DNA of 64,000 nt from Patescibacteria group bacterium. Its GTDB lineage: Bacteria > Patescibacteriota > Patescibacteriia > Magasanikbacterales > GWA2-37-8. The position numbers were made by a program, and so were the translations under genes. The notes under the pieces are model-generated. The model was not told where the DNA came from, did no database searches, and worked only from the letters and a program-made list of their open reading frames with translations. The stretch covers positions 142,337 to 206,336 of the forward strand of contig JAKLGL010000002.1 of the NCBI GenBank assembly GCA_022710645.1, read 5' to 3'. Positions 12,545 to 40,678 of this stretch are shown here, one piece after another; position 1 is the first letter of the stretch, and every line of letters begins with the position of its first letter.

Positions 12545-12656
12545 GTTCAGGCGCTGGCCTACTTTTGCCTTTAGGGCTATCATCGGCGCCGAAGAGCTTA
12601 ACTGCCGAGTTCGGGATGGGATCGGGTGTGACCCCTTCGCTTAAAGCACCTGAACT
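12545..12656 (-). rRNA. rrf: 5S rRNA
   Basis: The reverse complement reads ...GGTGCTTTAAGCGAAGGGGTCACACCCGATCCCATCCCGAACTCGGCAGTTAAGCTCTTCGGCGCCGATGATAGCCC..., containing the conserved 5S CCCGAAC motif. Ends are approximate. Confidence 0.85.
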
Positions 12657-12694
12657 CTACACTTAAAATTTAAAAGAATATTTTGGGACAAGAA

Positions 12695-15625
<2,931 letters not shown>

Positions 15626-21300: not shown

Positions 21301-21804
21301 TTAGGGACATTTGGCATCAAAAAGACATTCCTCGCTTTCTGCAGGATGAAAAGCCCCGCCATTAATACAGTCACTTTGATTTGCGACATTGATACAACTA
21401 TCCGAATAAATACAGCAACCTGACTTTCCGCTAAAAGACCCCACTCTTGAAATAATAAAAGTTGTAATTCCGTAAGACAAAACCGTAATTATCAAACCGA
21501 TTACAGCTCCTTCCATCGTTGCTTTGGCGCGTTCTATAAATTCTTCTTTACCGCGAGCAGTCAACCAACGCAGACCGGCATAAAGCGTCAAACCAAAAAA
21601 TATAAAAGCTATGGCTGCGAAAGCGACATTTAATACTTTACCGATAGAAACATAAATATTATCAGAAGCAGTATCATAGCCGCTTTTCGCCGCAGTTTCG
21701 GACATGCCAAAATCTTGAGAAAAAACAAAAAACGGCAACAATAAAATACAGCAAAAAAGCAAAGAAAATAATGTGATTTTAATACTTTTTTTATTTAAAA
21801 ACAT
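21301..21804 (-). CDS. VirB2/TrbC-like pilin-family membrane protein with a Cys-rich C-terminal tail; an outlying paralog of the 23.7-28.8 kb array
   Basis: Core LTLYAGLRWLTARGKEEFIERAKATMEGAVIGLIITVLSYGITTFI; tail GKSGCCIYSDSCINVANQSDCINGG...ECLFDAKCP. Confidence 0.6.
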   Translation of the reverse strand: MFLNKKSIKITLFSLLFCCILLLPFFVFSQDFGMSETAAKSGYDTASDNIYVSIGKVLNVAFAAIAFIFFGLTLYAGLRWLTARGKEEFIERAKATMEGAVIGLIITVLSYGITTFIISRVGSFSGKSGCCIYSDSCINVANQSDCINGGAFHPAESEECLFDAKCP

Positions 21805-22228: not shown

Positions 22229-22301
22229 GGTGTCCTTGGTATAACGGTTATTACGTCGGTTTGTGGTACCGACAAAACGGGTTCGACTCCCGTAGGACAC
22301 C
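22229..22301 (+). tRNA. tRNA-His, anticodon GTG, with an encoded G-1
   Basis: G-GTGTCCTTGGTATAACGGTTATTACGTCGGTTTGTGGTACCGACAAAACGGGTTCGACTCCCGTAGGACAC-C. Confidence 0.85.
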
Positions 22302-22313
22302 CTAATCAACAAA

Positions 22314-22343: not shown

Positions 22344-22461
22344 GACAGCGTTCTTAAGGGAGTCGAACAGGGAAAGGGAGAAAACGGGAGTTTTCTCTTG
22401 ATGAGGAAAGGTATTGGAAAACCCGAAGGTTTTCCAAAGAGGAGGCCAAAGGCCGACGACG

Positions 22462-22548
22462 TTCGACTCCCGTAGGACATCCATCAACAACAGAAGCCCC
22501 ATGGAGGAGCGAACCGACTAATGTCGGTGAGCGACGTTCGACTCCCTA
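22462..22548 (+). repeat. Two partial copies of the tRNA-His T-arm and acceptor 3' strand, like att remnants
   Basis: GTTCGACTCCCGTAGGACATCC at about 22462-22483 and GTTCGACTCCCTAGGACAC at about 22528-22547; the genuine tRNA 3' end is GGTTCGACTCCCGTAGGACACC. Confidence 0.6.
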
Positions 22549-22609: not shown

Positions 22610-23692
22610 ATGCTTAAGCCTATTCAAAAAATTCTATTCATCTCTTTTTCCGCCGGCGCCGGACACAAACGCGCAGCTGAAGCGCTTTTTTTGTCCTGTA
22701 AACAAAAATATCCGCAAATTCAAACCGAACACATAGATCTTCTGGATTATTCTAACTGTTTTTTCAAAAAAATTACCGCCTCTTTATATCATTTTTCAGT
22801 AAAATATTTTCCCGCTATTTACGGCCTGGCTTACAAAGCCACAAATCATTATTTTTTTGCCGACTTGCTTAATAAACTTTCCGGTATACTTCGCTTAAAT
22901 AATCTTAAGCTACACTCTTTTGTAAAAAATTATTCTCCGGACTTGATAATCTCCACTCATTTTATCGTTCCCGCGGTTGTCAAAGATATAGTCAAATCAA
23001 TCCCTATCGATATGGTTATTACTGATTACGGTTTACATGGAGTATGGCTAGCTCCCAATGTAAGAAATTTTTATGTAGCACATGAAAAGATAGCTCACGA
23101 ATTACAAGAAAAAAAAATCCAAGCAATAGCTACTGGCTTACCCGTACATCCAAACTTTTTTTCGGAAAAAAACATAGAAATTTTAAAAACAAAGTTTGAT
23201 CTTCGCCCGAAAGAAAAAACTATTTTGATAATGTCCGGCGGGTTCGGATTGAAAGATCAAACCCGGTTGATTAAAAAAATAACATCTTCTTTCTCTAAAA
23301 TAAATTTATTGGTTATTTCCGGAAAAGACAATGATAAGCTTTATCAAAAATACAAAAACATTCAAACTCCTCCGGGTGTTAATTATCAAGTAATAAAATT
23401 TACCGATGATATAGATGAACTGATACGTATTTGCGATATAGTAATTACCAAACCGGGAGGGATAACCCTGGCCGAATGCGCTTATTTGAATAAAAAAATA
23501 ATTTTAACCGAACCGATTCCCGGACAAGAAGAAACCAATGAAAAATATTTTACCCAAAACAAGTTGGCTGTAAAATTACAAGAAAAAAATATTACGGGGC
23601 AAATTCGCCAGTTGTTGGAACTGCCGGAAAATAAAAAATCACCAACCTTGTCGGCTAACGATCTCATATTAAATGAAGCGTTAAAAAATTAA
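22610..23692 (+). CDS. MGDG-synthase-like (GT28) diacylglycerol glycosyltransferase
   Basis: ISFSAGAGHKRAAEAL is the N-terminal signature; the C-terminal GT-B domain has ITKPGGITLAEC. Confidence 0.75.
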   Translation: MLKPIQKILFISFSAGAGHKRAAEALFLSCKQKYPQIQTEHIDLLDYSNCFFKKITASLYHFSVKYFPAIYGLAYKATNHYFFADLLNKLSGILRLNNLKLHSFVKNYSPDLIISTHFIVPAVVKDIVKSIPIDMVITDYGLHGVWLAPNVRNFYVAHEKIAHELQEKKIQAIATGLPVHPNFFSEKNIEILKTKFDLRPKEKTILIMSGGFGLKDQTRLIKKITSSFSKINLLVISGKDNDKLYQKYKNIQTPPGVNYQVIKFTDDIDELIRICDIVITKPGGITLAECAYLNKKIILTEPIPGQEETNEKYFTQNKLAVKLQEKNITGQIRQLLELPENKKSPTLSANDLILNEALKN

Positions 23693-23725: not shown

Positions 23726-24136
23726 TTATTCCCATCTTCTAAACGGCGCACCTTCCAATAATACGACTTTAAAAACAAACAATGTTATAGAATAAGACAA
23801 CAAAATTATAATCAAACCTATCACAGCCGCGGTCAAAATACTTTTTGCTTTTTCTATATTACCTTCATCTCCACCCGCGGTCATCCATAGAAATCCGGCA
23901 TACAGAGCCAAAAGTAAAAATACGAAACCGAGCATTCCGAGCGCATATCTGATTATCAAAAAAATTCCATCTCGCGGGTCTACCGGCTCGTCAAAACCGG
24001 CTCCTTTTTCACCGGCTGCAGCTTGTAATTGTTTATCTATCTCATTGGCAGCATCGGTGTTTTGAGCCAAACAAAAACTCGTATTTCCCAACAATAAAAT
24101 TCCGAACAGAAAAGTCAAAAATATTTTTTTGAACAT
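23726..24136 (-). CDS. VirB2/TrbC-like pilin-family protein, array member 1
   Basis: Signal peptide, then LALYAGFLWMTAGGDEGNIEKAKSILTAAVIGLIIILLSYSITLFV. Confidence 0.65.
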   Translation of the reverse strand: MFKKIFLTFLFGILLLGNTSFCLAQNTDAANEIDKQLQAAAGEKGAGFDEPVDPRDGIFLIIRYALGMLGFVFLLLALYAGFLWMTAGGDEGNIEKAKSILTAAVIGLIIILLSYSITLFVFKVVLLEGAPFRRWE

Positions 24137-24155
24137 ATTTTAAAAAATTAAAAAA

Positions 24156-24791
24156 TTAATCCGGAACGATTCCTTTGTATTCATCACATCTGAAATCATA
24201 ATCATTTTGCGCTTTAGCGCAAGTATTAGTAAACCAAGCGCCGCTAACCCCCTGACAATTTTGTTGTCCTTGATTTTCATAACAATCTCCGCAAGGCACT
24301 TCGTAAGCCGCAGCTCCGACTCCGATTTTTTTGGTACATCCTTGAACGGCGACAAAACAACAACCACTATACTGACTGGGGCCTACAGGTTGTAGTTCTC
24401 CGTACGGTTCGGGTTTTGTTGTACCGGCGACAAAATACAATATCAAAGCGGTAATACTGTAAGAAAGCATGACTATGACCAAACCGATTACGGCCGATGA
24501 CAAAATAGATTTTGCTTTTTCTATATTACCTTCATCTCCACCCGCGGTCATCCATAGAAATCCGGCATACAAAGTTAACAGCAGAAAAATGATTCCGGTA
24601 AAACCCAAAACTCCGTTGATATATCTGCCTATTGTTTCAGCCAAAGATGTTTCCGTCACGCCCGAAGTAGAAATTCCTCCTTGCTTGGCGATATTTTCGG
24701 CCGTACCCAAACCGATATCCGGTTGCGCGGCAACCGAACCGGCCAAACAAAAAAATGTTATCAACGAAAAAACAAAAAATCTTTTAAACAT
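24156..24791 (-). CDS. VirB2/TrbC-like pilin-family protein with a 10-Cys C-terminal tail, member 2
   Basis: Core LTLYAGFLWMTAGGDEGNIEKAKSILSSAVIGLVIVMLSYSIT; tail ...SGCCFVAVQGCTKK...CGDCYENQGQQNCQG...CAKAQNDYDFRCDEYKG. Confidence 0.65.
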   Translation of the reverse strand: MFKRFFVFSLITFFCLAGSVAAQPDIGLGTAENIAKQGGISTSGVTETSLAETIGRYINGVLGFTGIIFLLLTLYAGFLWMTAGGDEGNIEKAKSILSSAVIGLVIVMLSYSITALILYFVAGTTKPEPYGELQPVGPSQYSGCCFVAVQGCTKKIGVGAAAYEVPCGDCYENQGQQNCQGVSGAWFTNTCAKAQNDYDFRCDEYKGIVPD

Positions 24792-24796
24792 AAGAA

Positions 24797-25186
24797 TTAA
24801 TTACCCAAAGAAGTCGGCGGAGCCGACGCTTGGCGCGTTAAATTCAAAACCATAGCGGTAATTCCGTAAGCCATAAAAATTATTATCAAGCCTATAGTAG
24901 CGGCCGTAATTATTTCTTTGGCTTTTTCTATTTTACCTTCATCTCCTCCGGCAGTTAACCATAAGAAACCGGCATAGAAAGTTAATGCAAAAAAGATAAC
25001 CCCCAAAAATCCCAATACGGCTTTGATATATCCGCCAATAGTTTGAGACAAGGAGTATTCGGTAACATCGGTAGAATAACCGGATTTTTCGGCAATATTT
25101 TGCAAAGGATCTTGAGCTAAACAAAAAACTTTCGGGATAAACACCGCACCGAATAACAAACAAATTATAAAAATCTTTTTAAACAT
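24797..25186 (-). CDS. VirB2/TrbC-like pilin-family protein, member 3
   Basis: LTFYAGFLWLTAGGDEGKIEKAKEIITAATIGLIIIFMAYGIT. Confidence 0.65.
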   Translation of the reverse strand: MFKKIFIICLLFGAVFIPKVFCLAQDPLQNIAEKSGYSTDVTEYSLSQTIGGYIKAVLGFLGVIFFALTFYAGFLWLTAGGDEGKIEKAKEIITAATIGLIIIFMAYGITAMVLNLTRQASAPPTSLGN

Positions 25187-25189
25187 ATT

Positions 25190-25558
25190 TTATTGAACTT
25201 TACCCAAAACAAACATTGTTATCGAATAGGCACTCAAGGTAACAGCCAAACCGACAACACACCAAAAAATAATAGTTTTGGCTTTTTCTATTTTTCCTTC
25301 ATCGCCTGACGATATCAACCACAAAACACCGGCGTAAATCATAAAAATAAAGAATAAAGTATTTACCAAAAACATCGCGCCTTTGATAATATTTGATGTC
25401 GAAGCATCAAAACCGGAAAAACTAAGTTTAGTCGCAAAATCATCCATTTTTTCTTTTGAATCTTGAAATGCCGGCGAAGCGGTTTGCGCGTTAACAAAAG
25501 AATAAAATAAACCGGAAAATAAAAATGTAATAATAAAAATGATGATTGTTTTTTTCAT
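25190..25558 (-). CDS. VirB2/TrbC-like pilin-family protein, member 4
   Basis: MIYAGVLWLISSGDEGKIEKAKTIIFWCVVGLAVTLSAYSIT. Confidence 0.65.
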   Translation of the reverse strand: MKKTIIIFIITFLFSGLFYSFVNAQTASPAFQDSKEKMDDFATKLSFSGFDASTSNIIKGAMFLVNTLFFIFMIYAGVLWLISSGDEGKIEKAKTIIFWCVVGLAVTLSAYSITMFVLGKVQ

Positions 25559-25560
25559 AT

Positions 25561-26055
25561 TTAATCATTAACACAACAAGCAAATTCCGTACTTGGATCA
25601 CAACCGGCCAAAGAAGCGTTACCTGTGCTTCCACCGGCTTCCACACATTCGTTTAAACCTATTTCATTATTGGTAAAACAACTGCAAGTTTGTTTATTTG
25701 AAGCGCTACCCAATTTACTTCCCACAAAATAAGTTATGGTATAAGCGGACAAAACAATGGCCAAACCTATCACTGCGGCCGTAATTATTTCTTTGGCTTT
25801 TTCTATTTTTCCTTCATCACCGCTGGCAGTCATCCATAAAACCCCGGCATAAATCGTCAAAACCAAAAATATTGTTCCGAGCATCCCCAAAATAGATGCG
25901 ATCATAGACCCTATTTTACTCTCCAAAGGAGCCTGATTTATTCCCGCTTTACCGGCTACATTAGTCAAACCAGATCCGCCCAAATCTTGAGCCGAAACCG
26001 CGGCAATACCAAAAACAAAAACCGTTGCTAAAAGAAAAATAAAAATTTTTTTCAT
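25561..26055 (-). CDS. VirB2/TrbC-like pilin-family protein with a Cys-rich tail, member 5
   Basis: LTIYAGVLWMTASGDEGKIEKAKEIITAAVIGLAIVLSAYTIT; tail NKQTCSCFTNNEIGLNECVEAGG...GCDPSTEFACCVND. Confidence 0.65.
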   Translation of the reverse strand: MKKIFIFLLATVFVFGIAAVSAQDLGGSGLTNVAGKAGINQAPLESKIGSMIASILGMLGTIFLVLTIYAGVLWMTASGDEGKIEKAKEIITAAVIGLAIVLSAYTITYFVGSKLGSASNKQTCSCFTNNEIGLNECVEAGGSTGNASLAGCDPSTEFACCVND

Positions 26056-26115
26056 AAATGAGTGAATAAAATAGAAATGAGTTTATAACTCTTGTGAAAC
26101 AGTGATTATAAAATT

Positions 26116-26649
26116 TTAATTTGTTTTTTGAGCTTTGACTCTGCAACATTGGATATTAGCACCGCCCGGACAAAGATTTTTTTCATAATCTCCTTTGATA
26201 TTATTATAGACACAATCGCTGTTTATATCCTGACAAGAGGCGTAACCGTAAGTTTCATCGGCTATACATTTATTTTCCACTACTGTCGGAACAGAAGATA
26301 AAATATTACCAAAAACAAAATTTGTTATCGCATAAGCCGAAACGGAAATAATCAAACCAGCAACCGCGGCAAAAATTATTTTTTTTGCTTTTTCCACTTG
26401 ACTATCGTTGCCGCCGGCGGTCATCCATAAAAATCCGGAATAAACCAATAATAAGAAAAATATTATCCCTAGATAAAGTGATACTTGTCCTAAAACCAAA
26501 CCTACTGCACTCGGCAAGCTGCCGGTTTTGGAAACTTCCGTTTCACTCAACCCGGATATTTTACCGGCTGTATCCAACCCTCCTTGAGCCCACACCACAG
26601 ACACACTCATAATACCGGTTAAAATAATCAAAAAAAATATTTTTCGCAT
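26116..26649 (-). CDS. VirB2/TrbC-like pilin-family protein with a Cys-rich tail, member 6
   Basis: LLVYSGFLWMTAGGNDSQVEKAKKIIFAAVAGLIISVSAYAIT; tail NKCIADETYGYASCQDINSDCVYNN...CPGGANIQCCRVKAQKTN. Confidence 0.65.
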   Translation of the reverse strand: MRKIFFLIILTGIMSVSVVWAQGGLDTAGKISGLSETEVSKTGSLPSAVGLVLGQVSLYLGIIFFLLLVYSGFLWMTAGGNDSQVEKAKKIIFAAVAGLIISVSAYAITNFVFGNILSSVPTVVENKCIADETYGYASCQDINSDCVYNNIKGDYEKNLCPGGANIQCCRVKAQKTN

Positions 26650-26658
26650 AGTTATTCT

Positions 26659-27063
26659 TTAGGGAGATGAAGTTAAACGACTAAAAATAAATTCGGAAAT
26701 TCCATAAGCCAAAACCACTATCACAATACCATAAATAGCGCTTTCAATAATATCTTTAGCTTTGTCTACTTCTCCGGAATTATCTCGAGCTTTAATCCAG
26801 GTAAAACCGGCATAAATTATCAAAACCATCAAAACTATACCGACAAAACCCAAAACCAATCTTACCAACCCTTGAATAATATCCAAAGGTTCTTGATTGG
26901 AAATTCCTATAAGAGACAAAAGGCTATTATTATAAACTTTCTGCACTCCATATTTGGCGGCTTTTTGATCCGCTGTTTCATCGGCAAAACAAACCGATAA
27001 CGGCAAAATCAAAATCGAAAAAAGAATCGCGCCAAAAATAAATTTTTTAAAAAAAGATTTCAT
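26659..27063 (-). CDS. VirB2/TrbC-like pilin-family protein, member 7
   Basis: Start at MKSFFKKFIF; core LIIYAGFTWIKARDNSGEVDKAKDIIESAIYGIVIVVLAYGIS. Confidence 0.6.
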   Translation of the reverse strand: MKSFFKKFIFGAILFSILILPLSVCFADETADQKAAKYGVQKVYNNSLLSLIGISNQEPLDIIQGLVRLVLGFVGIVLMVLIIYAGFTWIKARDNSGEVDKAKDIIESAIYGIVIVVLAYGISEFIFSRLTSSP

Positions 27064-27150
27064 ATTGTTTTCTAACGACAATAATTTATCGCCAAAAAAC
27101 AATTTTTCAAAGGGGGTTGCGCGCGCGAACCCCCTTTGAAAAAAATGTTA

Positions 27151-27546
27151 TTACATAGTAGGATCGGTAGTTGCTGTAACCAATGAATTGATAACGAAAT
27201 TGGCCAAAGCATAGGCGGACAAAATGATCGCCAAGCCGATAATACCGGAAAAAATCCATTTTTTACCGGTTTCCACACGTCCTTCATCTCCACCGGCTGT
27301 CATCCAATAGAAACCGCCGATAAGAATTATAACCACGGCTACGATACCAAGAAGACCCATCATCACTCTGATAATGGAAGCTACTGTGGTACGAACATCT
27401 TGGGTACCCAAACCGATTTTAGCGCCATAAGAAATACCTAAATCGTCGGCTTGAATAGGTGTTTGAGCGGAAGAGGTGTTAGCCCAAAAAACCAAACCTC
27501 CAAGCATCATTGAAAAAATCACCATTGTCGAAACTAATTTTTGCAT
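27151..27546 (-). CDS. VirB2/TrbC-like pilin-family protein, member 8
   Basis: ILIGGFYWMTAGGDEGRVETGKKWIFSGIIGLAIILSAYALA. Confidence 0.6.
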   Translation of the reverse strand: MQKLVSTMVIFSMMLGGLVFWANTSSAQTPIQADDLGISYGAKIGLGTQDVRTTVASIIRVMMGLLGIVAVVIILIGGFYWMTAGGDEGRVETGKKWIFSGIIGLAIILSAYALANFVINSLVTATTDPTM

Positions 27547-27631
27547 ATTCTCACCCCCTTTCCGTTGTTAATTTCTTTTTTAAACATAACTTTATTTTAC
27601 TCCGCTTTATTCTTTATCGCAACTTTATTTA

Positions 27632-27967
27632 TTAAAATACTTGAAAAATAGTAGCGGTTATCAAATAACTGGAAAAAACAAAAATCAATCCTATCGCCGC
27701 CCAAATCATCGTTTGAGTACCGCTTTTTATCTTATCTTCATTACCCGCGGCCGTGAGCCATTGAAAACCTCCGTAAACCATCATTACCAAAGCCACACCG
27801 CCAATAATTCCGAGAACCGCTTTGATAACATAACCTATGATTTCAGCCGGACTATCCAAATTAATTTTCAAAGGATTAGTTAATTTAATAGTATTTTCAT
27901 TGGCGGCCAAAACGGCGGTTGAAAACAAAAACGATAAAGCAAATATCAATAAAAATATTTTTTTCAT
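27632..27967 (-). CDS. VirB2/TrbC-like pilin-family protein, member 9
   Basis: MMVYGGFQWLTAAGNEDKIKSGTQTMIWAAIGLIFVFSSYLIT. Confidence 0.6.
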   Translation of the reverse strand: MKKIFLLIFALSFLFSTAVLAANENTIKLTNPLKINLDSPAEIIGYVIKAVLGIIGGVALVMMVYGGFQWLTAAGNEDKIKSGTQTMIWAAIGLIFVFSSYLITATIFQVF

Positions 27968-27975
27968 AAGTTCTA

Positions 27976-28329
27976 TTAACCAAAAATATTAATAACAAAA
28001 CGAACAAAACCGTAACTAGCTCCGATAGCCACTGCACCAAACGCAGTCCAAACCAAAATAGTTCGCGCTTTTTCTATTTTACTATCATTACCGGCGGCGG
28101 TCATCCATAAAAATCCAGCATAAACCATCAAAGCCAGAGCTATAGTTCCCATAAACATTACCATAGCATTGATTCCTCTACTCATCAGATCGGAAACCCC
28201 TTGCACGTTTGAAGGATTAAGTTTTGCCGCAGCTTCCTCTTTTAAAGAGGAAGTCGTATAAGATTGAGCACAGACTTTCTGAATCGGTAACAGAATAAAA
28301 GAAAATAAAACTAAAAATATTTTTTTCAT
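27976..28329 (-). CDS. VirB2/TrbC-like pilin-family protein, member 10
   Basis: Start at MKKIFLVLFSF; core LMVYAGFLWMTAAGNDSKIEKARTILVWTAFGAVAIGASYGFV. Confidence 0.6.
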   Translation of the reverse strand: MKKIFLVLFSFILLPIQKVCAQSYTTSSLKEEAAAKLNPSNVQGVSDLMSRGINAMVMFMGTIALALMVYAGFLWMTAAGNDSKIEKARTILVWTAFGAVAIGASYGFVRFVINIFG

Positions 28330-28330
28330 A

Positions 28331-28783
28331 TTAGTTGTTTTTTGGTGTAGTAGTAGGCGTTTGTTCCAATTTGTATTCATCTTGCAATTGTAAAGAGTCT
28401 CCCAAAAATTTAACAATGGCCACTCCCGAATAAGCTATTACTATACCTATAACAGCGGCAATCATCGCATCTTTAGCTTCTTTTATTTTACCCGAATCAC
28501 CTCCGGAAATTATCATTTTGAATCCTCCGTAAACAAACACGAGTAATGCCAAAGCTCCGATAAAAGTAAACATATAAGCTCCTATATTTATCGCCAATTC
28601 GATAAATATACCGACATCGTCGCAAGCTTTATTTTCTCCAGGAGTTTTAGCCCCGCTCATCTGTTCTTGAATACATTTCGGATAAATTTTTGTCCAATTA
28701 CTCTGCGCTTGCACCCAACTCAAAGGAACAAAAAGTCCGATCATTAAAATTCCAACGATAATATTATTTTTAATTTTTTGCAT
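28331..28783 (-). CDS. VirB2/TrbC-like pilin-family protein, member 11
   Basis: Start at MQKIKNNIIVG; core LVFVYGGFKMIISGGDSGKIKEAKDAMIAAVIGIVIAYSGVAIV. Confidence 0.6.
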   Translation of the reverse strand: MQKIKNNIIVGILMIGLFVPLSWVQAQSNWTKIYPKCIQEQMSGAKTPGENKACDDVGIFIELAINIGAYMFTFIGALALLVFVYGGFKMIISGGDSGKIKEAKDAMIAAVIGIVIAYSGVAIVKFLGDSLQLQDEYKLEQTPTTTPKNN

Positions 28784-28788
28784 ATTTA

Positions 28789-30177
28789 TCAATATGTTTG
28801 CGAAATTTTTGTTGTCGCTCGATTAATAGCGTTTTCTTGCCACTTTTGCGCATCTTGTTCTCTGTCGGAAACCGGAGTTTTTATCCAATCTTCAAACAAA
28901 AGCCCGAGCGCGGTTTTAGCGGCTTCATAATTATTTCCACGATACCAATTCTCCGCTATTAATAAATCGTTCACAAAAGGCGCTAATTCCGGTTTGCTTT
29001 TTTGTTCTAATAAATAAGCCCTTTTGGCGGTTGGTCTGCCGGTTTGATCAAGATAATCTTTAACATTTAAATTTGCCAAATAATTCAAGAAATTCCAAGC
29101 CAATTCTTGATTTTTTGATTTCCCCACCACACATTGCAAAGAGTAGTTGGCAACATTAACGGGATTTTCGGTGTTGAGTTGAATAAGCGGCAAAATATCA
29201 AAATTTAAATTCGCACCTTGTGATTTTATCAAATTATAATGATAATTATATCCGAAGAAAAATGCCGAACCGCCTTTGATAAATCTGTCTAAAGCTGTTT
29301 CTTGTTCAGCATTCCAAGAATAAGTATCGCGATTAGGATTGGAAAAATCAGTATAAAAATCTAAAACATTACGCAAAGGATTTTCATTTTTAGAACCTGT
29401 CCAAGCAAACCCCTCTTCTCCAAGAGTGATGCCGCTTTGTTTCAAAAGTACATAAAAAATATCATCAAAATTATTGATGTTGGTTGATAATCCTAACGCT
29501 ACTCCGGATTGAGATATTTTTCCCGTATCTTTGTTAAATTTCGTGGTTTTGCGCACCGCATTTTGAAATTCTTCCCAAGTTTTCGGAGGTTCCGGAACCC
29601 CGGATCTATCCAAAATGTCTTTGTTGTAATAAATCACCAAACTATCAAGCGACAAGGGCAAACCATATATTTTTTCATCTAAGACTGCGTCCTTTTTTAC
29701 GGTTTGAAAAAATTCTCTTTCAACATTCAAAACAGAAGGAAGTGTAACCGTCCGCAAATTGATAACCGTTTCCGTGCCGCCGGTTGCGGTTTTTTTTGTT
29801 TCCACAATTGCGTCTTTTATTGTTGACGGCATGGCTGTCAATTTACTTTTATAAAAAGGCAACTGTCGCACAGGTACTGATATCAAGTCCGGTCCCTTAT
29901 CTTCAGCTAAAGCTTCCACCAATTTATCATAAATTTCTTCGGGTTTATATTGACGAACATTTATATTCGCATAAGGACGATAGGCTTGAAATTTTTTAAC
30001 CGCGGCATTTATAGCTCCAACATCATCATAAACAGTCCAATACTCCAAAGTGACTTTTTTTACCGCTGCCGCTTGTTCTTGAGTAACCGTTCCTTTACAG
30101 CCAAAACCGGAAACCAAAAACAAACCCGACAACAAAAGCAAACTCAAAATTTTAAAATTTATTTTGCTGGGAAACAT
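28789..30177 (-). CDS. Extracellular solute-binding protein of an ABC transporter (family 1, sugar type), probably a lipoprotein
   Basis: Signal peptide ending ...LVSGFGC; 462 aa with typical SBP_bac_1 length and composition. The assignment rests on overall resemblance. Confidence 0.55.
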   Translation of the reverse strand: MFPSKINFKILSLLLLSGLFLVSGFGCKGTVTQEQAAAVKKVTLEYWTVYDDVGAINAAVKKFQAYRPYANINVRQYKPEEIYDKLVEALAEDKGPDLISVPVRQLPFYKSKLTAMPSTIKDAIVETKKTATGGTETVINLRTVTLPSVLNVEREFFQTVKKDAVLDEKIYGLPLSLDSLVIYYNKDILDRSGVPEPPKTWEEFQNAVRKTTKFNKDTGKISQSGVALGLSTNINNFDDIFYVLLKQSGITLGEEGFAWTGSKNENPLRNVLDFYTDFSNPNRDTYSWNAEQETALDRFIKGGSAFFFGYNYHYNLIKSQGANLNFDILPLIQLNTENPVNVANYSLQCVVGKSKNQELAWNFLNYLANLNVKDYLDQTGRPTAKRAYLLEQKSKPELAPFVNDLLIAENWYRGNNYEAAKTALGLLFEDWIKTPVSDREQDAQKWQENAINRATTKISQTY

Positions 30178-30204: not shown

Positions 30205-31074
30205 TTATTTGATTATCTTTTTAAGGTATTTTTTAAATTCTTTGCGTAATTTTTTATCGCGTAAAGCAAAATCTACATTAGCTTTCAAATAACCGAGTTT
30301 GCTGCCAGTATCATAATAAGTACCGTTTATCAATTTGGCGTAAATAGGTCTTTTTTTGAGTAATTTGAAAATAGCATCAACCAACCACAATTCTCCGCCT
30401 TTGCCTAATTTGGTATTTTCCAATGCTTCAAAGATGTCTGGCGTCAAAATAAAACCGCCCAAAGAAGCCAAATTTGAAGGGGCATTTTGGGGCCCCGGTT
30501 TTTCAACTATATTTTTTACTTGATAAATCTCTTTTTCCACCGTCAAAGCGTCCAAAATACCGTATTTACCGGTATCTTTTTTTTCAACTTTATAAGCAGT
30601 CAAAACCGGGTCACCATATTTTTCATAAACCTCTATCAATTGTTTTAATTGGGATTTCCCGGAAGTATAAAAAAATTCATCCCCCCACATCACGGCAAAA
30701 GGTTCGTCTCCGATAATATTCTTGGCGCACAAAATCGGAGTACCGTTTCCGTAAGGTCCTTTTTGACGAATAAAAATAAAATTTGCCAAATCCGCTATTT
30801 TTTTCACATCTTGCGCAACATCGTCTTTTTTTTGTTTTTTCAACCAATTAATCAACTCATAATTCGGACTAAAATGATCTTCCACCGCTCTTTTGCTCGG
30901 GCCGGTAATGAAAATAATATCCGTAATTCCGGCTCTTACAGCATCTTCCACCACATATTGAATAATAGGTTTATCAACCACCGGCAACATTTCTTTTGGT
31001 TGAGCCTTGGTGGCCGGTAAAAATCTCGTTCCTAAACCCGCAACCGGGATAACCAATTTCTTGATACTTCCCAT
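30205..31074 (-). CDS. galU: UTP--glucose-1-phosphate uridylyltransferase
   Basis: KKLVIPVAGLGTRFLPATKAQPKEMLPVVDKPIIQYVVEDAVRAGI. Confidence 0.9.
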   Translation of the reverse strand: MGSIKKLVIPVAGLGTRFLPATKAQPKEMLPVVDKPIIQYVVEDAVRAGITDIIFITGPSKRAVEDHFSPNYELINWLKKQKKDDVAQDVKKIADLANFIFIRQKGPYGNGTPILCAKNIIGDEPFAVMWGDEFFYTSGKSQLKQLIEVYEKYGDPVLTAYKVEKKDTGKYGILDALTVEKEIYQVKNIVEKPGPQNAPSNLASLGGFILTPDIFEALENTKLGKGGELWLVDAIFKLLKKRPIYAKLINGTYYDTGSKLGYLKANVDFALRDKKLRKEFKKYLKKIIK

Positions 31075-37055: not shown

Positions 37056-37745
37056 TTATTCAATTTTATCTGATTTTGTTAAATTACATTTAGCACAAAG
37101 CAACCGAATATTTTTAGCAGTCAAACTTGTTCCACCCCTTGAAAAGGGCAAGTCATGATCAAAATGTAAATTTTTCATTGATCCACATAATACACATTTT
37201 CCACTATCTCTTTTCCAAACTTCTTTTTTTACCTCACTAGGTATAAGCCTTGTATGTGCAAGATCAATATGTTCATTTGTAGTTAAATCTTGTTCATCTG
37301 ATAATTTTAAAGTAAATACAAAAACATTTCTCTTTCCGTCGTTTTTAATATTGTAATCAATTAAATCAAACAATCCTTTTAACGACCACACGCCAGTTAA
37401 AATTTTTTCATAAACCTTCACTGTTTCGGCTTTAGAAGTTTTATTTTTAAATTTTTTTACTGCTTCAATAAATTTTCCATTTTGGGTTAATGTGCCATTT
37501 CTGGTTTGTTGAGGTTGGTCAAATAATTTTGGATTCATTTCATAAGAAATTTTTGGCTCATCATGTCCTTCGTATTCAATAGTAATTCCATCATCAGAAA
37601 TACTATCGACATAAGGTGCATTTGATCTACGCGACATTAAAATAACAGAATATTTTGGATTCATTCTAAAGTTCATACCTCGTTGTAAGGTTTGGACATT
37701 CTCTATATCACACATTTCTCGATATGAGTATATTTGATCAATCAT
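37056..37745 (-). CDS. SRA(YDG)-HNH modification-dependent (Type IV-like) restriction endonuclease
   Basis: N-terminal SVILMSRRSNAPYVDSISDDGITIEYEGHD resembles the SRA core; C-terminal CVLCG...HFDHDLPFSRGG...NIRLLCAKCN is an HNH motif. Confidence 0.55.
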   Translation of the reverse strand: MIDQIYSYREMCDIENVQTLQRGMNFRMNPKYSVILMSRRSNAPYVDSISDDGITIEYEGHDEPKISYEMNPKLFDQPQQTRNGTLTQNGKFIEAVKKFKNKTSKAETVKVYEKILTGVWSLKGLFDLIDYNIKNDGKRNVFVFTLKLSDEQDLTTNEHIDLAHTRLIPSEVKKEVWKRDSGKCVLCGSMKNLHFDHDLPFSRGGTSLTAKNIRLLCAKCNLTKSDKIE

Positions 37746-37848
37746 ATTTAATTTAATATTTCTAAATAAATTTTACTCTTTCTAACCAAAAAACACAAGA
37801 TTTTTTAACAAAAAAGCTCCAGACAGGCACGTTGGAGCTTTTTTGTTT

Positions 37849-38538
37849 TTATCGCGACAGGCACGTGGCGACAAAAGATTTTAATTTTTCTTTTAACTTT
37901 TCCAATTCTTCTTCACTATATGTTTCTTCACTTAACATTTTTTCATCAACTGTTTTGGTGGGGACAAATTTCTGCAAAAAATATTTCTTCGCGCCGGCTA
38001 TTTCTTTACCTATTTGCAGGATATCATCAGGCGATAGTAAATTTTTTACCAATGTCGTGCGAAATTCATAATCAATCCCCGAATTTTTTATCATTTCCAC
38101 GCTTTGTTTTATTTTCTCTATATTCATCGGCATTCTGGTTATTTCTTCGTATTTAGCCAAAGGCGCTTTGATATCCATCGCGAGATAATTTACCAATTTT
38201 TGATCTATAATTTCTTTGAGCATTTCCGGATTAGTGCCATTGGTATCCAGTTTGATGAGAAATCCCAAGTCGCGGATTTTTTTGATAAATTCTATCAAAT
38301 CATATTGGAGTGTCGGTTCCCCGCCAGTGATAGATACTGCATCCAACTTTCCTACTCGTTCTTTCAAAAAATCAAAAAACTCATCTTCGTTTAAACTTTC
38401 CCCGAACATTTCCGGTTTTACCAATTCCGGATTGTGACAATACGGACAGCGAAAATTGCAACCTTGCGTGAAAACTATGCAAGCCACTTTATCCGGATAA
38501 TCTATCATGGAAAATTTTTGCAATCCGCCTATTTTCAT
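37849..38538 (-). CDS. nrdG: Anaerobic ribonucleoside-triphosphate reductase activating protein (radical SAM)
   Basis: FTQGCNFRCPYCHNPEL, a CxxxCxxC radical-SAM cluster motif; directly downstream of nrdD. Confidence 0.9.
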   Translation of the reverse strand: MKIGGLQKFSMIDYPDKVACIVFTQGCNFRCPYCHNPELVKPEMFGESLNEDEFFDFLKERVGKLDAVSITGGEPTLQYDLIEFIKKIRDLGFLIKLDTNGTNPEMLKEIIDQKLVNYLAMDIKAPLAKYEEITRMPMNIEKIKQSVEMIKNSGIDYEFRTTLVKNLLSPDDILQIGKEIAGAKKYFLQKFVPTKTVDEKMLSEETYSEEELEKLKEKLKSFVATCLSR

Positions 38539-38539
38539 A

Positions 38540-40678
38540 TTAACAAGTAGCGCAAGTTGTTTGTAAAGTTTCTACTTCTTCGGTTGTTCCCGGAACTTTG
38601 AAAGTTTTACGCATACCAAATTCCGCTTTTTTGCCATGATTCCATTGTTGTACCGGGCGGAGATAACCGACGACGCGAGAATAAACTTCAGTTTTAGCTT
38701 TACAATCCGGACATTCAAAATGTTCACCAACTATATATCCATGACTTGGGCAAACACTGAAAGTCGGAGAAAAAGTGAAGTATGGTAATTTATAAGTATT
38801 ACAAATTTTCTTCACCATATTTTTTACCACTTCCACACTATTTATTTTTTCTCCCACAAATAGATGCATCACTGTGCCACCGGTATATTTGGTTTGCAAT
38901 CCATCTTGCATATCCATAGCTTCGAAAATATCATCTGTATGATTTACCGGCAATTGAGTGGAGTTGGTATAAAAAGGATGAGCGCCTTTTTGATATTCTT
39001 CTTCGTTAGCCACGATAATTTCCGGATATTTGATTTTGTCTTTGCTAGCTAGACGGAAAGAAGTGCCTTCAGCCGGAGTAGCTTCTAGATTATAGATACT
39101 GCCGGTTTCTGTTTGATAAACTTGCAATCTGTCGCGCATAAAATTCATAATGCGGATGGCAAAATCCAAACCTTCTTTTTCCGTGATATTTTTTCCCAAT
39201 AAATTTTTTGCCGCTTCATTCATACCGACCAAACCGATGGTGCCAAAATGATTTTTCCAATATTGATCAAAACGAGCTTTGATATTGCGTAAATAATATT
39301 TAGCGTAAGGATAAAGATTTTTTTCCGTCAAAGTTTCCAAAATTTTTCTTTTGATTTCCAAACTATCTTTGGCTAAATCCATCAAACGACCGAGTTTTTC
39401 TTTGAATTCTTCTTCGGTTTTGGATGTATAACCCAAACGTGGCATATTGATAGTGACTACCCCGATAGAACCGGTGAGCGGGTTGGCGCCGAAAAGTCCG
39501 CCACCTCTGGATTGTAATTCGCGATTATCAATACGCAAACGACAACACATACTGCGAGCATCTTCCGGATTCATATCAGAATTTACGAAATTGGAGAAAT
39601 ACGGAATACCATATTTAGCCGTCATTTCCCAGAGATTTTTGAGTTCAGGATTATCCCAATCAAAATCTTTGGTGATGTTATATGTCGGAATCGGGAAAGT
39701 GAAAACGCGTCCTTTGGCATCCCCTTCCATCATCACTTCAAAAAACGCTTTATTGAACATATCCATTTCTGCTTGGAATTCTCCGTAAGTTTCTTTTTGC
39801 GGTTTACCACCGATAATCACCGGTTGATCTTTGTAATAACTCGGCACTTTCAAATCCATGGTAACATTGGTAAAAGGAGTTTGAAAACCTACGCGAGTCG
39901 GCACGTTGACATTGAAAACAAATTCTTGCAAACATTGTTTTACATCTTTGTAACTCAAATTGTCATAACGGATAAACGGAGCAAGTAAAGTATCAAAATT
40001 GGAAAAAGCTTGTGCGCCGGCAGCTTCACCTTGGAGGGTGTAAAAGAAATTTACCACTTGACCCAAAGCCGGACGTAAATGTTTGGCCGGTTTGGTCTCT
40101 ACTTTTCCCGCTACTCCGGTGAAACCTTCCACCAATAAATCGTGCAAATCCCAACCTACGCAATAAACAGACAAAATATTCAAATCGTGAATATGAAAAT
40201 CACCTTCCAAATAGGCGTTTTTGATTTCTTTTGGATAAATTTTATTCAACCAATAAACTTTACTGATTTCCGAAGATATATAGTTATTCAAACCTTGAAG
40301 AGAAAAAGCCATGTTGCTATTCTCGTTTACTTGCCAATCAGCTTGAGAGAGATATTGATCAACCAAATCCACACTGGCGCGATTGGTCAATTCACGAAGT
40401 TGTTTGTGTTGTTCACGATAGATAATGTATGATTTCGCGGTTTTGGTATAAGTGGAATCGATAAGCACGGCTTCAACGATATCTTGCAAATCTTCCACGG
40501 TCGGAACTTCTTTACGAATCATTTTCCCGGCCAATTGTACAACTTTGAGAGCGAGACGACGAGCCGTGTTTTCATCAAATTCCCCGGTCGCCGCGCCGGC
40601 TTTGGCGATAGCTTGAATTATTTTTTCGGCGTCAAAATCAACCACTCGCCCGTCCCTCTTTTTGATTTTATCAAACAT
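38540..40678 (-). CDS. nrdD: Anaerobic ribonucleoside-triphosphate reductase
   Basis: 712 aa with an ATP-cone-like N-terminus; C-terminal Zn ribbon CPSHGY...CPDCK and glycyl-radical region ...RVVGYLRPV. Confidence 0.9.
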   Translation of the reverse strand: MFDKIKKRDGRVVDFDAEKIIQAIAKAGAATGEFDENTARRLALKVVQLAGKMIRKEVPTVEDLQDIVEAVLIDSTYTKTAKSYIIYREQHKQLRELTNRASVDLVDQYLSQADWQVNENSNMAFSLQGLNNYISSEISKVYWLNKIYPKEIKNAYLEGDFHIHDLNILSVYCVGWDLHDLLVEGFTGVAGKVETKPAKHLRPALGQVVNFFYTLQGEAAGAQAFSNFDTLLAPFIRYDNLSYKDVKQCLQEFVFNVNVPTRVGFQTPFTNVTMDLKVPSYYKDQPVIIGGKPQKETYGEFQAEMDMFNKAFFEVMMEGDAKGRVFTFPIPTYNITKDFDWDNPELKNLWEMTAKYGIPYFSNFVNSDMNPEDARSMCCRLRIDNRELQSRGGGLFGANPLTGSIGVVTINMPRLGYTSKTEEEFKEKLGRLMDLAKDSLEIKRKILETLTEKNLYPYAKYYLRNIKARFDQYWKNHFGTIGLVGMNEAAKNLLGKNITEKEGLDFAIRIMNFMRDRLQVYQTETGSIYNLEATPAEGTSFRLASKDKIKYPEIIVANEEEYQKGAHPFYTNSTQLPVNHTDDIFEAMDMQDGLQTKYTGGTVMHLFVGEKINSVEVVKNMVKKICNTYKLPYFTFSPTFSVCPSHGYIVGEHFECPDCKAKTEVYSRVVGYLRPVQQWNHGKKAEFGMRKTFKVPGTTEEVETLQTTCATC

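What the first reader, a model, noticed from the sequence alone, without database searches (positions are those of the whole stretch)
23726..28792. Tandem array of 11 diversified VirB2/TrbC-like pilin-family genes, several with cysteine-rich C-terminal tails (plus a 12th paralog at 21301-21804)
Eleven consecutive minus-strand genes of 111-211 aa are separated by only 3-60 bp. All share one architecture: a signal peptide, a variable mature N-region, a hydrophobic helix ending in ...(L/I)YAGF(L/Y)WMTAGG(D/N)(E/D)(G/S)KIEKAK..., and a second helix ...AAVIGL.I.(L/V)SY.IT.FV. This two-helix hairpin with a short charged loop is the hallmark of T4SS pilins (VirB2/TrbC, PF04956-like). The conserved core is flanked by highly divergent N-terminal regions. 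In members 2, 5 and 6 and in the outlier at 21.3 kb there are long C-terminal tails with 8-12 cysteines and no mutual similarity. This is the pattern expected for a surface-exposed, diversifying family, possibly adhesive pilus subunits or tips used in cell-cell or host contact. No VirB4/VirD4 ATPase occurs in the window, so the export or assembly machinery is unknown. The array is bracketed by type IV pilus genes (31-35 kb, 57-62 kb) and a lipid glycosyltransferase.
Basis: partly seen in the sequence, partly recalled or inferred. Interest (0 to 1): 0.85.

Follow-up and report, generated by a model that had tools for sequence, protein, structure and literature searches.

The report
Known-type pilin gene array in Patescibacteria
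This is a real cluster of 11 (+1) small membrane "pilin" genes of a type already described in ultra-small Patescibacteria; it is old and stably inherited rather than fast-diversifying, and one strongly expressed member looks like the main building block while the others carry extra surface domains.

Summary
The array is real: 11 tandem minus-strand genes (23726-28783) plus a 12th at 21301-21804. All match Pfam PF18895 "T4SS_pilin" (9 of 12 above the curated cut-off). The genome is a Candidatus Magasanikbacteria-type Patescibacterium. Such "VirB2-like pilin arrays" of 2-11 genes are already published (PMC12102498; Wang 2023), so this is a new member of a known kind, at the top of the size range.

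All 12 paralogues have 1:1 positional orthologues in related species, and dN/dS is about 0.08-0.09, including the N-regions and the Cys tail. There are no recent duplications.

Points I did not find in the literature searched:
- Gene order 11-10-9-8 is fixed across about 30 species.
- Member p8 alone has a very strong ribosome-binding site and a conserved terminator hairpin, so it is the probable major subunit.
- Tails hold 6-8 Cys (not 8-12). Across relatives, tail Cys counts are almost always even.
- The same N-terminal module is fused to adhesin-like proteins of up to 3,464 aa.
- An orphan solute-binding lipoprotein gene precedes 32 of 54 large arrays.
- No T4SS ATPase lies within 10 kb in about 85 loci.

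The link to classical VirB2/TrbC is weak by both sequence and fold.

The parts
28331..28783 (-). p11, first gene of the array (150 aa from the ATG; an alternative TTG start lies at 28792). It has 2 Cys in its N-region.
   Evidence: PF18895 34.7 bits. Positional orthologues in L004 and L005. First position conserved in about 30 genomes.
27976..28329 (-). p10 (117 aa), a divergent member
   Evidence: PF18895 22.3 bits, below the 26.6 cut-off. It aligns with the family. Orthologues 64-68% identical.
27632..27967 (-). p9 (111 aa), the shortest member, with no tail
   Evidence: PF18895 45.5 bits, the best score in the array. Conserved position.
27594..27622 (-). Promoter-like element TTGCGA-17-TAAAAT in the 85-nt gap upstream of p8
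   Evidence: Consensus scan. This is a pattern match only.
27551..27563 (-). Shine-Dalgarno GGAAAGGGGGTGA of p8
   Evidence: Duplex with the anti-SD is -17.8 kcal/mol, the strongest of 59 window genes (median -0.4). The same motif sits upstream of most p8-type genes in other genomes.
27151..27546 (-). p8 (131 aa, no Cys), the probable major subunit
   Evidence: PF18895 40.9 bits and the best TrbC score in the array (21.1 bits, E 3.8e-4). Most conserved member (52-83% across species). 2,130 homologues against 380 for p2. Unique SD and terminator.
27103..27143 (-). GC-rich terminator-like hairpin after p8, followed by a U-run
   Evidence: MFE -33.3 kcal/mol, z = -6.4. A strong hairpin follows 36 of 40 p8-type genes. 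The stem GGGGGTTCGCGCGCGCAACCCCC is identical in L004, L005, L015, L065 and L072. No Rfam family matches.
26659..27063 (-). p7 (134 aa from the ATG; an alternative TTG start lies at 27102)
   Evidence: PF18895 39.6 bits. This type is often missing in other genomes.
26116..26649 (-). p6 (177 aa) with a 6-Cys C-terminal tail
   Evidence: PF18895 26.4 bits, just below the cut-off. Its tail type is found in 18 loci.
25561..26055 (-). p5 (164 aa) with a 6-Cys C-terminal tail
   Evidence: PF18895 42.8 bits. Cys positions.
25190..25558 (-). p4 (122 aa)
   Evidence: PF18895 30.6 bits. dN/dS 0.09 against L008.
24797..25186 (-). p3 (129 aa)
   Evidence: PF18895 32.6 bits. dN/dS 0.089.
24156..24791 (-). 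p2 (211 aa): hairpin, linker and an 8-Cys compact alpha/beta domain (residues ~144-206)
23726..24136 (-). p1 (136 aa), last gene of the array
   Evidence: PF18895 30.0 bits. dN/dS 0.094. Downstream structure is -29 kcal/mol.
21301..21804 (-). p12, the detached paralogue (167 aa) with a 6-Cys tail that evolves fast
   Evidence: PF18895 25.2 bits. Positional orthologue present in many genomes. Tail only 37% identical to the L008 orthologue, and the tail length varies (167-242 aa proteins).
28789..30177 (-). Orphan solute-binding-protein-like gene with a possible lipoprotein signal, 5 nt upstream of p11. It is probably co-transcribed with the array.
   Evidence: SBP_bac_8 and SBP_bac_1. Weak sugar-SBP matches. 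A homologue lies immediately upstream on the same strand in 32 of 54 arrays with 5 or more members.
30205..31074 (-). Sugar-nucleotidyl transferase, a conserved upstream neighbour
   Evidence: PF00483. Within 2.5 kb of 30 of 54 large arrays.
22610..23692 (+). MGDG-synthase-type glycolipid glycosyltransferase, convergent with the array's end
   Evidence: PF06925 and PF04101. Within 2.5 kb of 19 of 54 large arrays.

Best explanation
The locus is a chromosomal array of 11 (+1) PF18895 'T4SS_pilin' genes in a Candidatus Magasanikbacteria-type Patescibacterium (GTDB class ABY1). It is a new example of the published 'VirB2-like pilin arrays' of this phylum.

Shown by sequence and model:
- Each product has a Sec-type signal peptide, a short extracellular N-region and a two-helix membrane hairpin. 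The hairpin has a short charged loop (TAGGDEGKIEKAK). The C-terminus is extracellular and is either bare or carries a small disulfide-rich domain.

Inferred:
- p8 is the abundant major subunit. It has the strongest ribosome-binding site in the window, its own promoter-like element and a conserved terminator, and it is the most conserved and most widespread member.
- The other ten or eleven are low-abundance, functionally distinct minor or 'modular' subunits. Their N-regions and Cys-rich tails are displayed on the outside.
- The subunits are first inserted into the membrane. They are then extracted and assembled into a short filament or contact structure by a VirB4-type T4SS encoded elsewhere in the genome. 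This structure serves attachment to, or exchange with, a host cell.

The set is ancient and under purifying selection, so it works as a fixed toolkit and not as a variation system.
For: - Family: all 12 hit PF18895, 9 of them above the cut-off. All 89 relatives tested hit it. NCBI names homologues 'pilin'.
- Known kind: arrays of 2-11 such genes are reported in 383 Patescibacteria assemblies. They are essential in S. epibionticum.
- Topology: hydrophobic segments and A-x-A|Q sites. AF2 hairpin plus a confident tail domain. Tail Cys counts are almost always even across 156 tails, which suggests extracellular disulfides.
- Fixed toolkit: 12 of 12 positional orthologues in two species. The order 11-10-9-8 is conserved in about 30 genomes. 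dN/dS is 0.08-0.09. No DNA repeat exceeds 84% identity.
- p8 as major subunit: SD -17.8 kcal/mol against a median of -0.4. A hairpin is conserved after 36 of 40 p8-type genes. p8 has 2,130 homologues against 380 for p2.
- Expression: T4SS pilins are among the top-expressed secreted proteins in two Paceibacteria.
- T4SS elsewhere: the Magasanikbacteria assemblies visible in Table S1 are VirB4-positive. ABY1 T4SS loci lie near comF, recG and radA.
Against: - No T4SS gene lies within 10 kb of the array here or in about 85 related loci.
- VirB4 presence in this particular genome was not tested.
- Similarity to bona fide VirB2/TrbC is not above membrane-protein noise by sequence.
- Fusions of the same module to 900-3,464-aa adhesin-like proteins are hard to fit into a helical polymer.
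- The major/minor assignment rests on expression signals, not on expression data for this organism.
Confidence: 0.5

Rival explanations
1. The PF18895 hairpin is mainly a membrane anchor, not a polymerising pilin. The array encodes a set of small surface-displayed proteins held in the cytoplasmic membrane by the hairpin, with no T4SS involved. In other genomes the same anchor holds giant adhesins. Under this reading p8 would be an abundant membrane scaffold.
For: - The same N-terminal module heads proteins of 900-3,464 aa that carry TIG, Big_5, Big_7 and CarboxypepD_reg domains.
- 156 of 514 family members carry tails of 35 aa or more.
- No T4SS gene lies within 10 kb in about 85 loci.
- The conserved neighbours are envelope and glycan genes and an orphan SBP lipoprotein.
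- The link to VirB2 is weak.
Against: - In Saccharibacteria the pilin array lies inside the essential T4SS cluster.
- In 1,135 of 1,948 assemblies a pilin gene lies near virB4.
- The most expressed and most conserved member, p8, carries no cargo domain, which is odd for a mere anchor.
- All members tested hit a Mycoplasma ICE 'pilin-like conjugal transfer protein' model.
Confidence: 0.3
2. The array is a diversifying repertoire for antigenic or host-range variation. Paralogues would turn over quickly and surface regions would be under positive selection.
For: - Paralogues are only about 32% identical, and their N-regions and tails differ.
- Copy number of the distal types (p7-p1) varies between genomes.
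- The p12 tail evolves fast (37% identity, whole-gene dN/dS 0.24).
- The published discussion suggests adaptation to different hosts.
Against: - Positional orthology is strictly 1:1 for all 12 in two species.
- dN/dS is 0.04-0.10 in N-regions, cores and the p2 tail.
- There are no near-identical DNA tracts, so no recent duplication or gene conversion.
- The order 11-10-9-8 is fixed in about 30 genomes.
Confidence: 0.1
3. The genes encode an unrelated small membrane protein family, either holins or type IV (class III signal peptide) pilins assembled by the nearby T4P genes.
For: - The proteins are small and have two TM segments.
- T4P genes lie at 31-35 kb and 57-62 kb.
Against: - No holin or other functional PHROG hit was found.
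- No N_methyl or class III signal motif is present. The leaders are Sec-type with A-x-A|Q sites.
- PF18895 is the only consistent family match.
Confidence: 0.03

Closest known systems
VirB2-like pilin arrays of Patescibacteria (Quinonero-Coronel et al. 2025, PMC12102498; Wang et al. 2023, PMC10633639; the 'Sec-secreted array' of TM7x)
   Same: - Same Pfam family (PF18895).
- Tandem arrays of 2-11 divergent paralogues. Published mean identity is 25% and max 54%; here mean 32% and max 53%.
- Monoderm ultra-small bacteria.
- Sec-type leaders.
   Different: - This array is at the top of the reported size range (11, plus a detached 12th).
- It is not linked to virB4, whereas in S. epibionticum the array lies inside the T4SS cluster.
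- Not mentioned in those papers as far as I could read: the fixed gene order, the purifying selection, the singular expression signals of one member, the Cys-rich tails, the giant fusions and the conserved upstream SBP gene.
Classical conjugative pilins VirB2/TrbC/TraA (PF04956)
   Same: - A signal peptide followed by two hydrophobic helices joined by a short charged loop.
- Both termini are predicted to lie outside.
- The mature N-terminus after an Ala|Gln site resembles Agrobacterium VirB2 (from my own knowledge).
   Different: - The PF04956 cut-off is not met.
- There is no sequence hit to any solved pilin.
- The fold match is not specific.
- The proteins are longer and have C-terminal domains, which are incompatible with head-to-tail cyclisation.
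- No adjacent T4SS genes are present.
Mbov_0395 family pilin-like conjugal transfer protein of Mycoplasma ICEs (NCBIfam NF045849)
   Same: - All 8 window proteins tested align over nearly the whole 80-position model (E 5e-8 to 6e-4).
- These elements carry the monoderm (MPF-FATA) type of T4SS, the type from which the Patescibacteria VirB4 is said to derive.
   Different: - Scores are 19-33 bits, below the cut-off of 40.
- The model is an 'equivalog' for Mycoplasma, so this is a remote resemblance and not membership.
VirB2 paralogue arrays of Bartonella and Anaplasma
   Same: Tandem amplification of divergent pilin genes. The 2025 paper cites this as the analogy.
   Different: Those arrays are interpreted as antigenic or host-interaction variation. 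Here the paralogues are ancient, positionally fixed and under purifying selection.
Modular type IV pilins, such as Streptococcus sanguinis PilB/PilC (from my own knowledge)
   Same: The design principle is shared: a pilin module with an extra functional domain grafted onto its C-terminus, used as a minor subunit alongside a major pilin.
   Different: The protein family and the assembly machinery are unrelated (class III signal peptide, PilD, PilB ATPase). The comparison is an analogy only.

Membership tests
Pfam PF18895 T4SS_pilin | Score at or above the curated gathering cut-off (26.6 bits) over the ~71-position model | tested here: met
   9 of 12 score 30.0-45.5 bits. p6 (26.4), p12 (25.2) and p10 (22.3) fall just below but align with the others. 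89 of 89 relatives hit the model.
Patescibacteria VirB2-like pilin array (as defined in PMC12102498) | Two or more PF18895/PF04956 genes in tandem, or separated by one non-pilin gene, in a Patescibacteria genome | tested here: met
   11 genes lie in tandem. Homologues are named Candidatus Magasanikbacteria or Patescibacteria.
Patescibacteria VirB2-like pilin array (as defined in PMC12102498) | A VirB4-type T4SS in the same genome | not testable with these tools
   None is in the 64-kb window or within 10 kb in about 85 related loci. The Magasanikbacteria assemblies visible in Table S1 of the paper are VirB4-positive. I could not obtain a VirB4 seed to search the 906-kb relative contig.
TrbC/VirB2 pilin (Pfam PF04956) | Score at or above the gathering cut-off (27.9 bits) | tested here: not met
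   The best score is 21.1 bits (p8). 5 of 12 show hits with E between 4e-4 and 0.4. Only 7 of 89 relatives reach E<0.01, fewer than for the unrelated DctQ model (15 of 89).
TrbC/VirB2 pilin (Pfam PF04956) | Signal peptide plus two transmembrane helices joined by a short cytoplasmic loop | tested here: met
   Hydropathy segments and A-x-A|Q sites occur in all 12. The AF2 hairpin is H49-82 and H87-125. No dedicated signal-peptide predictor was available.
TrbC/VirB2 pilin (Pfam PF04956) | Fold similarity to solved conjugative pilins | tested here: inconclusive
TrbC/VirB2 pilin (Pfam PF04956) | Polymerises into an extracellular pilus in a T4SS-dependent way | not testable with these tools
   This requires microscopy or genetics.
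NCBIfam NF045849 Mbov_0395 pilin-like conjugal transfer protein | Score at or above the cut-off of 40 bits | tested here: not met
   8 of 8 hit over model positions ~4-80 but score only 19.5-32.6 bits.
Type IV pilins (T4P, class III signal peptide) | N-terminal methylation motif (PF07963) or a prepilin leader | tested here: not met
   No N_methyl hit occurs in any array protein, whereas the neighbouring 618-aa protein has one.
Phage holins | Match to a holin family | tested here: not met
   A PHROGs scan of 10 members gave no functional hit.

The most novel reading that the evidence does not exclude
The PF18895 hairpin is a general 'pilin anchor' onto which Patescibacteria graft orphan disulfide-rich domains or giant adhesins. 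The array would then encode an ordered heteropolymeric surface organelle made of one major subunit (p8) and ten or more dedicated minor modular pilins. This would be the VirB2-world counterpart of modular type IV pilins. Its assembly would be uncoupled, at least genomically and perhaps mechanistically, from the T4SS and linked instead to a conserved orphan solute-binding lipoprotein.
Probability: 0.3. Interest if true: 0.65.

Novelty: new member of a known kind. Interest (0 to 1): 0.38.

Why it matters
Patescibacteria may make up a large share of bacterial diversity, and they live attached to other cells. How they make contact is largely unknown. Their T4SS and its pilin array are essential in the one species tested, but the function is described as completely unknown.

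This locus does not reveal a new kind of system. It does give testable structure to a known one:
- which paralogue is probably the main building block;
- that the paralogues are a fixed, conserved toolkit rather than a variation device;
- that the same module carries small disulfide-rich domains and giant adhesins.

These points can guide which genes to knock down, tag or look for in cryo-EM maps of filaments.

Tried and rejected
- The 12-member alignment was too divergent to seed a locus search. A 4-member alignment worked.
- The AFDB50 fold library was unavailable.
- The family profile against PDB sequences gave no hit at E<=10.
- Foldseek against the PDB gave nothing below E=1.
- I searched for a VirB4 seed in several ways. 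I looked for Walker-A ORFs of 550 aa or more in all loci. I inspected the surroundings of distant pilin hits. I ran Pfam on recurring neighbour families and on ORFs at locus edges. These turned out to be PilB, IF2, RuvB, DnaA, DnaN, YidC, NusA, PBP and similar, never a T4SS part. Without a seed I could not test the 906-kb relative genome for VirB4.
- The p8 homologue search returned only close array members (59% identity or more), not T4SS-linked relatives.
- Two papers proved irrelevant. The 2026 'Pam pilus' preprint describes an Ig-fold, donor-strand-exchange system. The giant-genes preprint concerns Omnitrophota.
- The Rfam scan of the p8 hairpin gave only chance miRNA-like hits far below threshold.
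- The holin and T4P-pilin readings were rejected.

Full report
OBSERVATION

Between 23726 and 28792 the minus strand carries 11 back-to-back ORFs of 111-211 aa. A 12th related ORF lies at 21301-21804. The twelve translate into one alignable family. G81 and G107 are invariant. Y79, W84, G89 and Y115 are at least 90% conserved. Mean pairwise identity is 32% (max 53%). In the two-helix core it is 40% (max 71%).

Every protein starts with a K/R-rich n-region and a hydrophobic h-region, followed by a small-x-small site. Gln follows in 10 of 12. Two more hydrophobic segments come next, separated by the charged loop ...TAGG(D/N)(E/D)(G/S)K(I/V)EKAK....

Three details in the finding need correction:
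- Intergenic gaps are 1-87 nt, not 3-60.
- The Cys-rich tails contain 8, 6, 6 and 6 cysteines (p2, p5, p6, p12), not 8-12.
- The likely starts of p11 and p7 are the internal ATGs, as in public gene calls.

The four tails have no significant mutual similarity. Only p5 against p12 is borderline at z=2.8.

WHAT IT IS

All twelve match Pfam PF18895 'Type IV secretion system pilin'. Nine score above the curated cut-off. p6, p12 and p10 fall just below it.

The window is chromosomal. It holds 23S and 5S rRNA and eight tRNAs, and GC content is about 37%. Homologues carry the names Candidatus Magasanikbacteria or Patescibacteria, and some are already annotated 'pilin' by NCBI. The identical array is present in public metagenome contigs.

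The kind is published. Quinonero-Coronel et al. 2025 searched 3,035 Patescibacteria genomes with PF04956 and PF18895. They report 441 'VirB2 arrays' of 2-11 pilin genes in 383 assemblies, with mean identity 25% and maximum 54%. Wang et al. 2023 showed that such an array, embedded in the T4SS cluster, is essential in Southlakia epibionticum. The finding is therefore a new member of a known kind, at the upper end of the size range.

RELATION TO CLASSICAL VirB2/TrbC

This relationship is weaker than the family name suggests.
- PF04956 is never reached. The best score is 21.1 bits for p8 against a cut-off of 27.9.
- Among 89 relatives only 7 touch PF04956 at E<0.01. That is fewer than touch the unrelated DctQ membrane model (15).
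- The family profile finds no solved protein at E<=10.
- An AlphaFold model of p2 (pLDDT 79.6) shows the expected hairpin, H49-82 and H87-125. Foldseek finds nothing significant.

A more consistent remote signal is NCBIfam NF045849, the 'Mbov_0395 family pilin-like conjugal transfer protein' of Mycoplasma ICEs. All eight proteins tested hit it over nearly its whole length, though below its cut-off.

Holins and type IV (class III) pilins are excluded.

CONTEXT

No VirB4, VirD4 or VirB6 was found among the 35 window ORFs scanned outside the array. In about 85 related loci with 10-kb flanks I found no T4SS component either.

The recurrent neighbours are different:
- An orphan solute-binding-protein-like gene with a possible lipoprotein signal lies immediately upstream on the same strand in 32 of 54 arrays with five or more members. 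Here it ends 5 nt before p11.
- A sugar-nucleotidyl transferase lies within 2.5 kb in 30 of 54.
- An MGDG-synthase-type glycosyltransferase lies within 2.5 kb in 19 of 54.
- Type IV pilus minor-pilin genes also recur.

According to the 2025 paper, T4SS loci of class ABY1 (which contains Magasanikbacteria) sit next to comF, recG and radA. The Magasanikbacteria assemblies visible in its Table S1 are VirB4-positive. The machinery is therefore probably encoded elsewhere. I could not verify this for this genome.

EVOLUTION: A FIXED TOOLKIT, NOT A DIVERSIFYING REPERTOIRE

In two related species (L004 = GCA_036744835.1 and L005) the whole region is syntenic. Each of the 12 window paralogues has its best match at the same position: 12 of 12 in both. 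Orthologues are 48-85% identical, while the best non-orthologous match is at most 51%.

Orthologues diverge faster than the housekeeping neighbours, which are 84-96% identical. They diverge about as fast as the MGDG synthase.

Against a closer relative (L008), dN/dS is 0.083-0.094 for p1-p4. For the N-regions that differ between paralogues it is 0.08. For the 8-Cys tail of p2 it is 0.04. dS is about 1, so these values are approximate. Only the tail of the detached p12 evolves fast.

At the DNA level only the core is repeated, at 61-84% identity. That means no recent duplication or gene conversion.

Across about 30 species-level genomes the order 11-10-9-8 is invariant. The distal part (types 7 to 1) gains and loses copies. 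Arrays of 6-11 members are common in this clade.

ONE MEMBER STANDS OUT

p8 (27151-27546) differs from the rest in several ways:
- It is the most conserved member (52-83% identity across species).
- It has 2,130 detectable homologues against 380 for p2.
- It carries no cysteine and only a short tail.
- It is flanked by the two longest intergenic gaps.
- It is preceded by a promoter-like element.
- Its Shine-Dalgarno GGAAAGGGGGTGA pairs with the anti-SD at -17.8 kcal/mol. That is the strongest of 59 genes in the window (median -0.4; next best -10.8).
- It is followed by a GC-rich hairpin of -33 kcal/mol (z = -6.4) and a U-run.

Both signals recur around p8-type genes in other genomes. A hairpin follows 36 of 40, and in five other loci (L004, L005, L015, L065, L072) the stem sequence is identical.

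None of the other 11 paralogues has a recognisable SD. Only p1, the last gene, has a comparably strong downstream structure.

I infer that p8 is the abundant major subunit and that the others are minor subunits. Independent support comes from a metatranscriptome study. It found T4SS pilins among the five most expressed signal-peptide genes of unknown function in two Paceibacteria.

THE TAILS

Given the Sec leader and the charged inter-helix loop, the C-terminus should be extracellular.

Among 514 family members in the fetched loci, 156 have tails of 35 aa or more. Of these, 136 contain four or more Cys, and the counts are almost always even (4, 6, 8, 10, 12...). That pattern points to disulfide-bonded extracellular domains.

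The tails fall into separate sequence clusters. The p6 type occurs in 18 loci.

The same N-terminal module also heads proteins of 900 to 3,464 aa that carry TIG, Big_5, Big_7 and CarboxypepD_reg domains, which are adhesin-like architectures. Some of these occur in the same genomes that also carry a large array (L043/L081 and L049/L061).

I found no description of these C-terminal extensions in the papers searched. That literature search is limited.

MECHANISM

Best-supported reading (confidence about 0.5): the products are inserted by Sec and stored in the membrane as hairpins. p8 forms the bulk of a short VirB2-type filament or contact structure. The minor paralogues are incorporated sparsely or at defined positions, and they display their N-regions and disulfide-rich domains to the outside. 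Assembly is driven by a VirB4-type T4SS encoded elsewhere.

The shown steps are family membership, architecture, conservation, expression signals and the domain fusions. Polymerisation, T4SS dependence and host contact are inferred from the published Saccharibacteria data.

The main rival (about 0.3) is that the hairpin is simply a membrane anchor for surface display, independent of the T4SS. The giant fusions and the missing genomic linkage favour it.

The diversifying-repertoire reading gets about 0.1, and unrelated families about 0.03.

VERDICT

This is a real feature, correctly recognised as pilin-like, but of a kind that is already described. Interest is moderate. The value lies in four added observations that make the known system more testable:
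- the major/minor organisation;
- the deep positional conservation under purifying selection;
- the modular Cys-rich and giant fusions;
- the conserved SBP partner.

Noticed in passing
L054:9830-20221 (+); also L042:6915-17207, L059:9839-19396, L045:540-3269: The PF18895 hairpin module forms the N-terminus of giant Cys-rich proteins (up to 3,464 aa and 176 Cys) that carry TIG, Big_5, Big_7 and CarboxypepD_reg domains. In these loci only 1-2 pilin genes are present. The same MAG can hold both a large array and such giants (L043/L081; L049/L061).
   Followed up: partly
window 28789-30177 (-): An orphan solute-binding-protein-like gene lies directly upstream of the array, with no ABC permease or ATPase beside it. 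It has a possible lipoprotein signal (...LVSGFGC). Homologues lie immediately upstream of 32 of 54 large arrays, and in L089 a pilin gene sits on each side of it. Its role next to pilins is unexplained.
   Followed up: partly
window 27103-27143 (-) and the equivalent positions in L004, L005, L015, L065, L072: The hairpin after p8 keeps an identical stem sequence (GGGGGTTCGCGCGCGCAACCCCC) in genomes whose pilins are only about 60% identical. This suggests selection on the sequence itself, beyond simple terminator function. No Rfam family matches.
   Followed up: partly
window 22281-22302 and 22461-22482 (+): The last 22 nt of tRNA-His are repeated 180 bp downstream at 95% identity. This could be an att-like scar of an integration or excision event between the tRNA and the MGDG synthase gene.
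   Followed up: no
all eight array proteins tested (p1, p2, p5, p6, p8, p9, p11, p12): There are consistent sub-threshold hits to NCBIfam NF045849, the pilin-like conjugal transfer protein of Mycoplasma ICEs. The 2025 paper states that monoderm MPF-FATA systems lack VirB2 homologues. This hit hints that a related hairpin protein exists in Tenericutes ICEs and could bear on the origin of the Patescibacteria pilins.
   Followed up: no
window 12546-15621 (-): The 23S and 5S rRNA genes are present, but no 16S rRNA gene occurs anywhere in the 64-kb window. The rRNA operon therefore appears to be split.
   Followed up: no
window 37056-40678 (-): A 229-aa HNH endonuclease gene lies directly next to the anaerobic ribonucleotide reductase pair (NrdD 712 aa and a radical-SAM activase). 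It may be a free-standing homing endonuclease.
   Followed up: no
L008, L010, L012, L022-L024 and many other CAY*/CAZ* records: Many public MAG records that carry these Patescibacteria pilin arrays are titled 'uncultured Gammaproteobacteria bacterium'. One record (L034) is titled 'Candidatus Udaeobacter sp.'. These labels look like taxonomic mislabelling in the source records.
   Followed up: no
L077, L085, L066, L031, L044: In a subset of related genomes the pilin array lies within a few kb of dnaA, dnaN and yidC, that is, next to the replication origin. This echoes the published origin-proximal placement of Patescibacteria T4SS genes. Here too, no VirB4 lies within 10 kb.
   Followed up: partly
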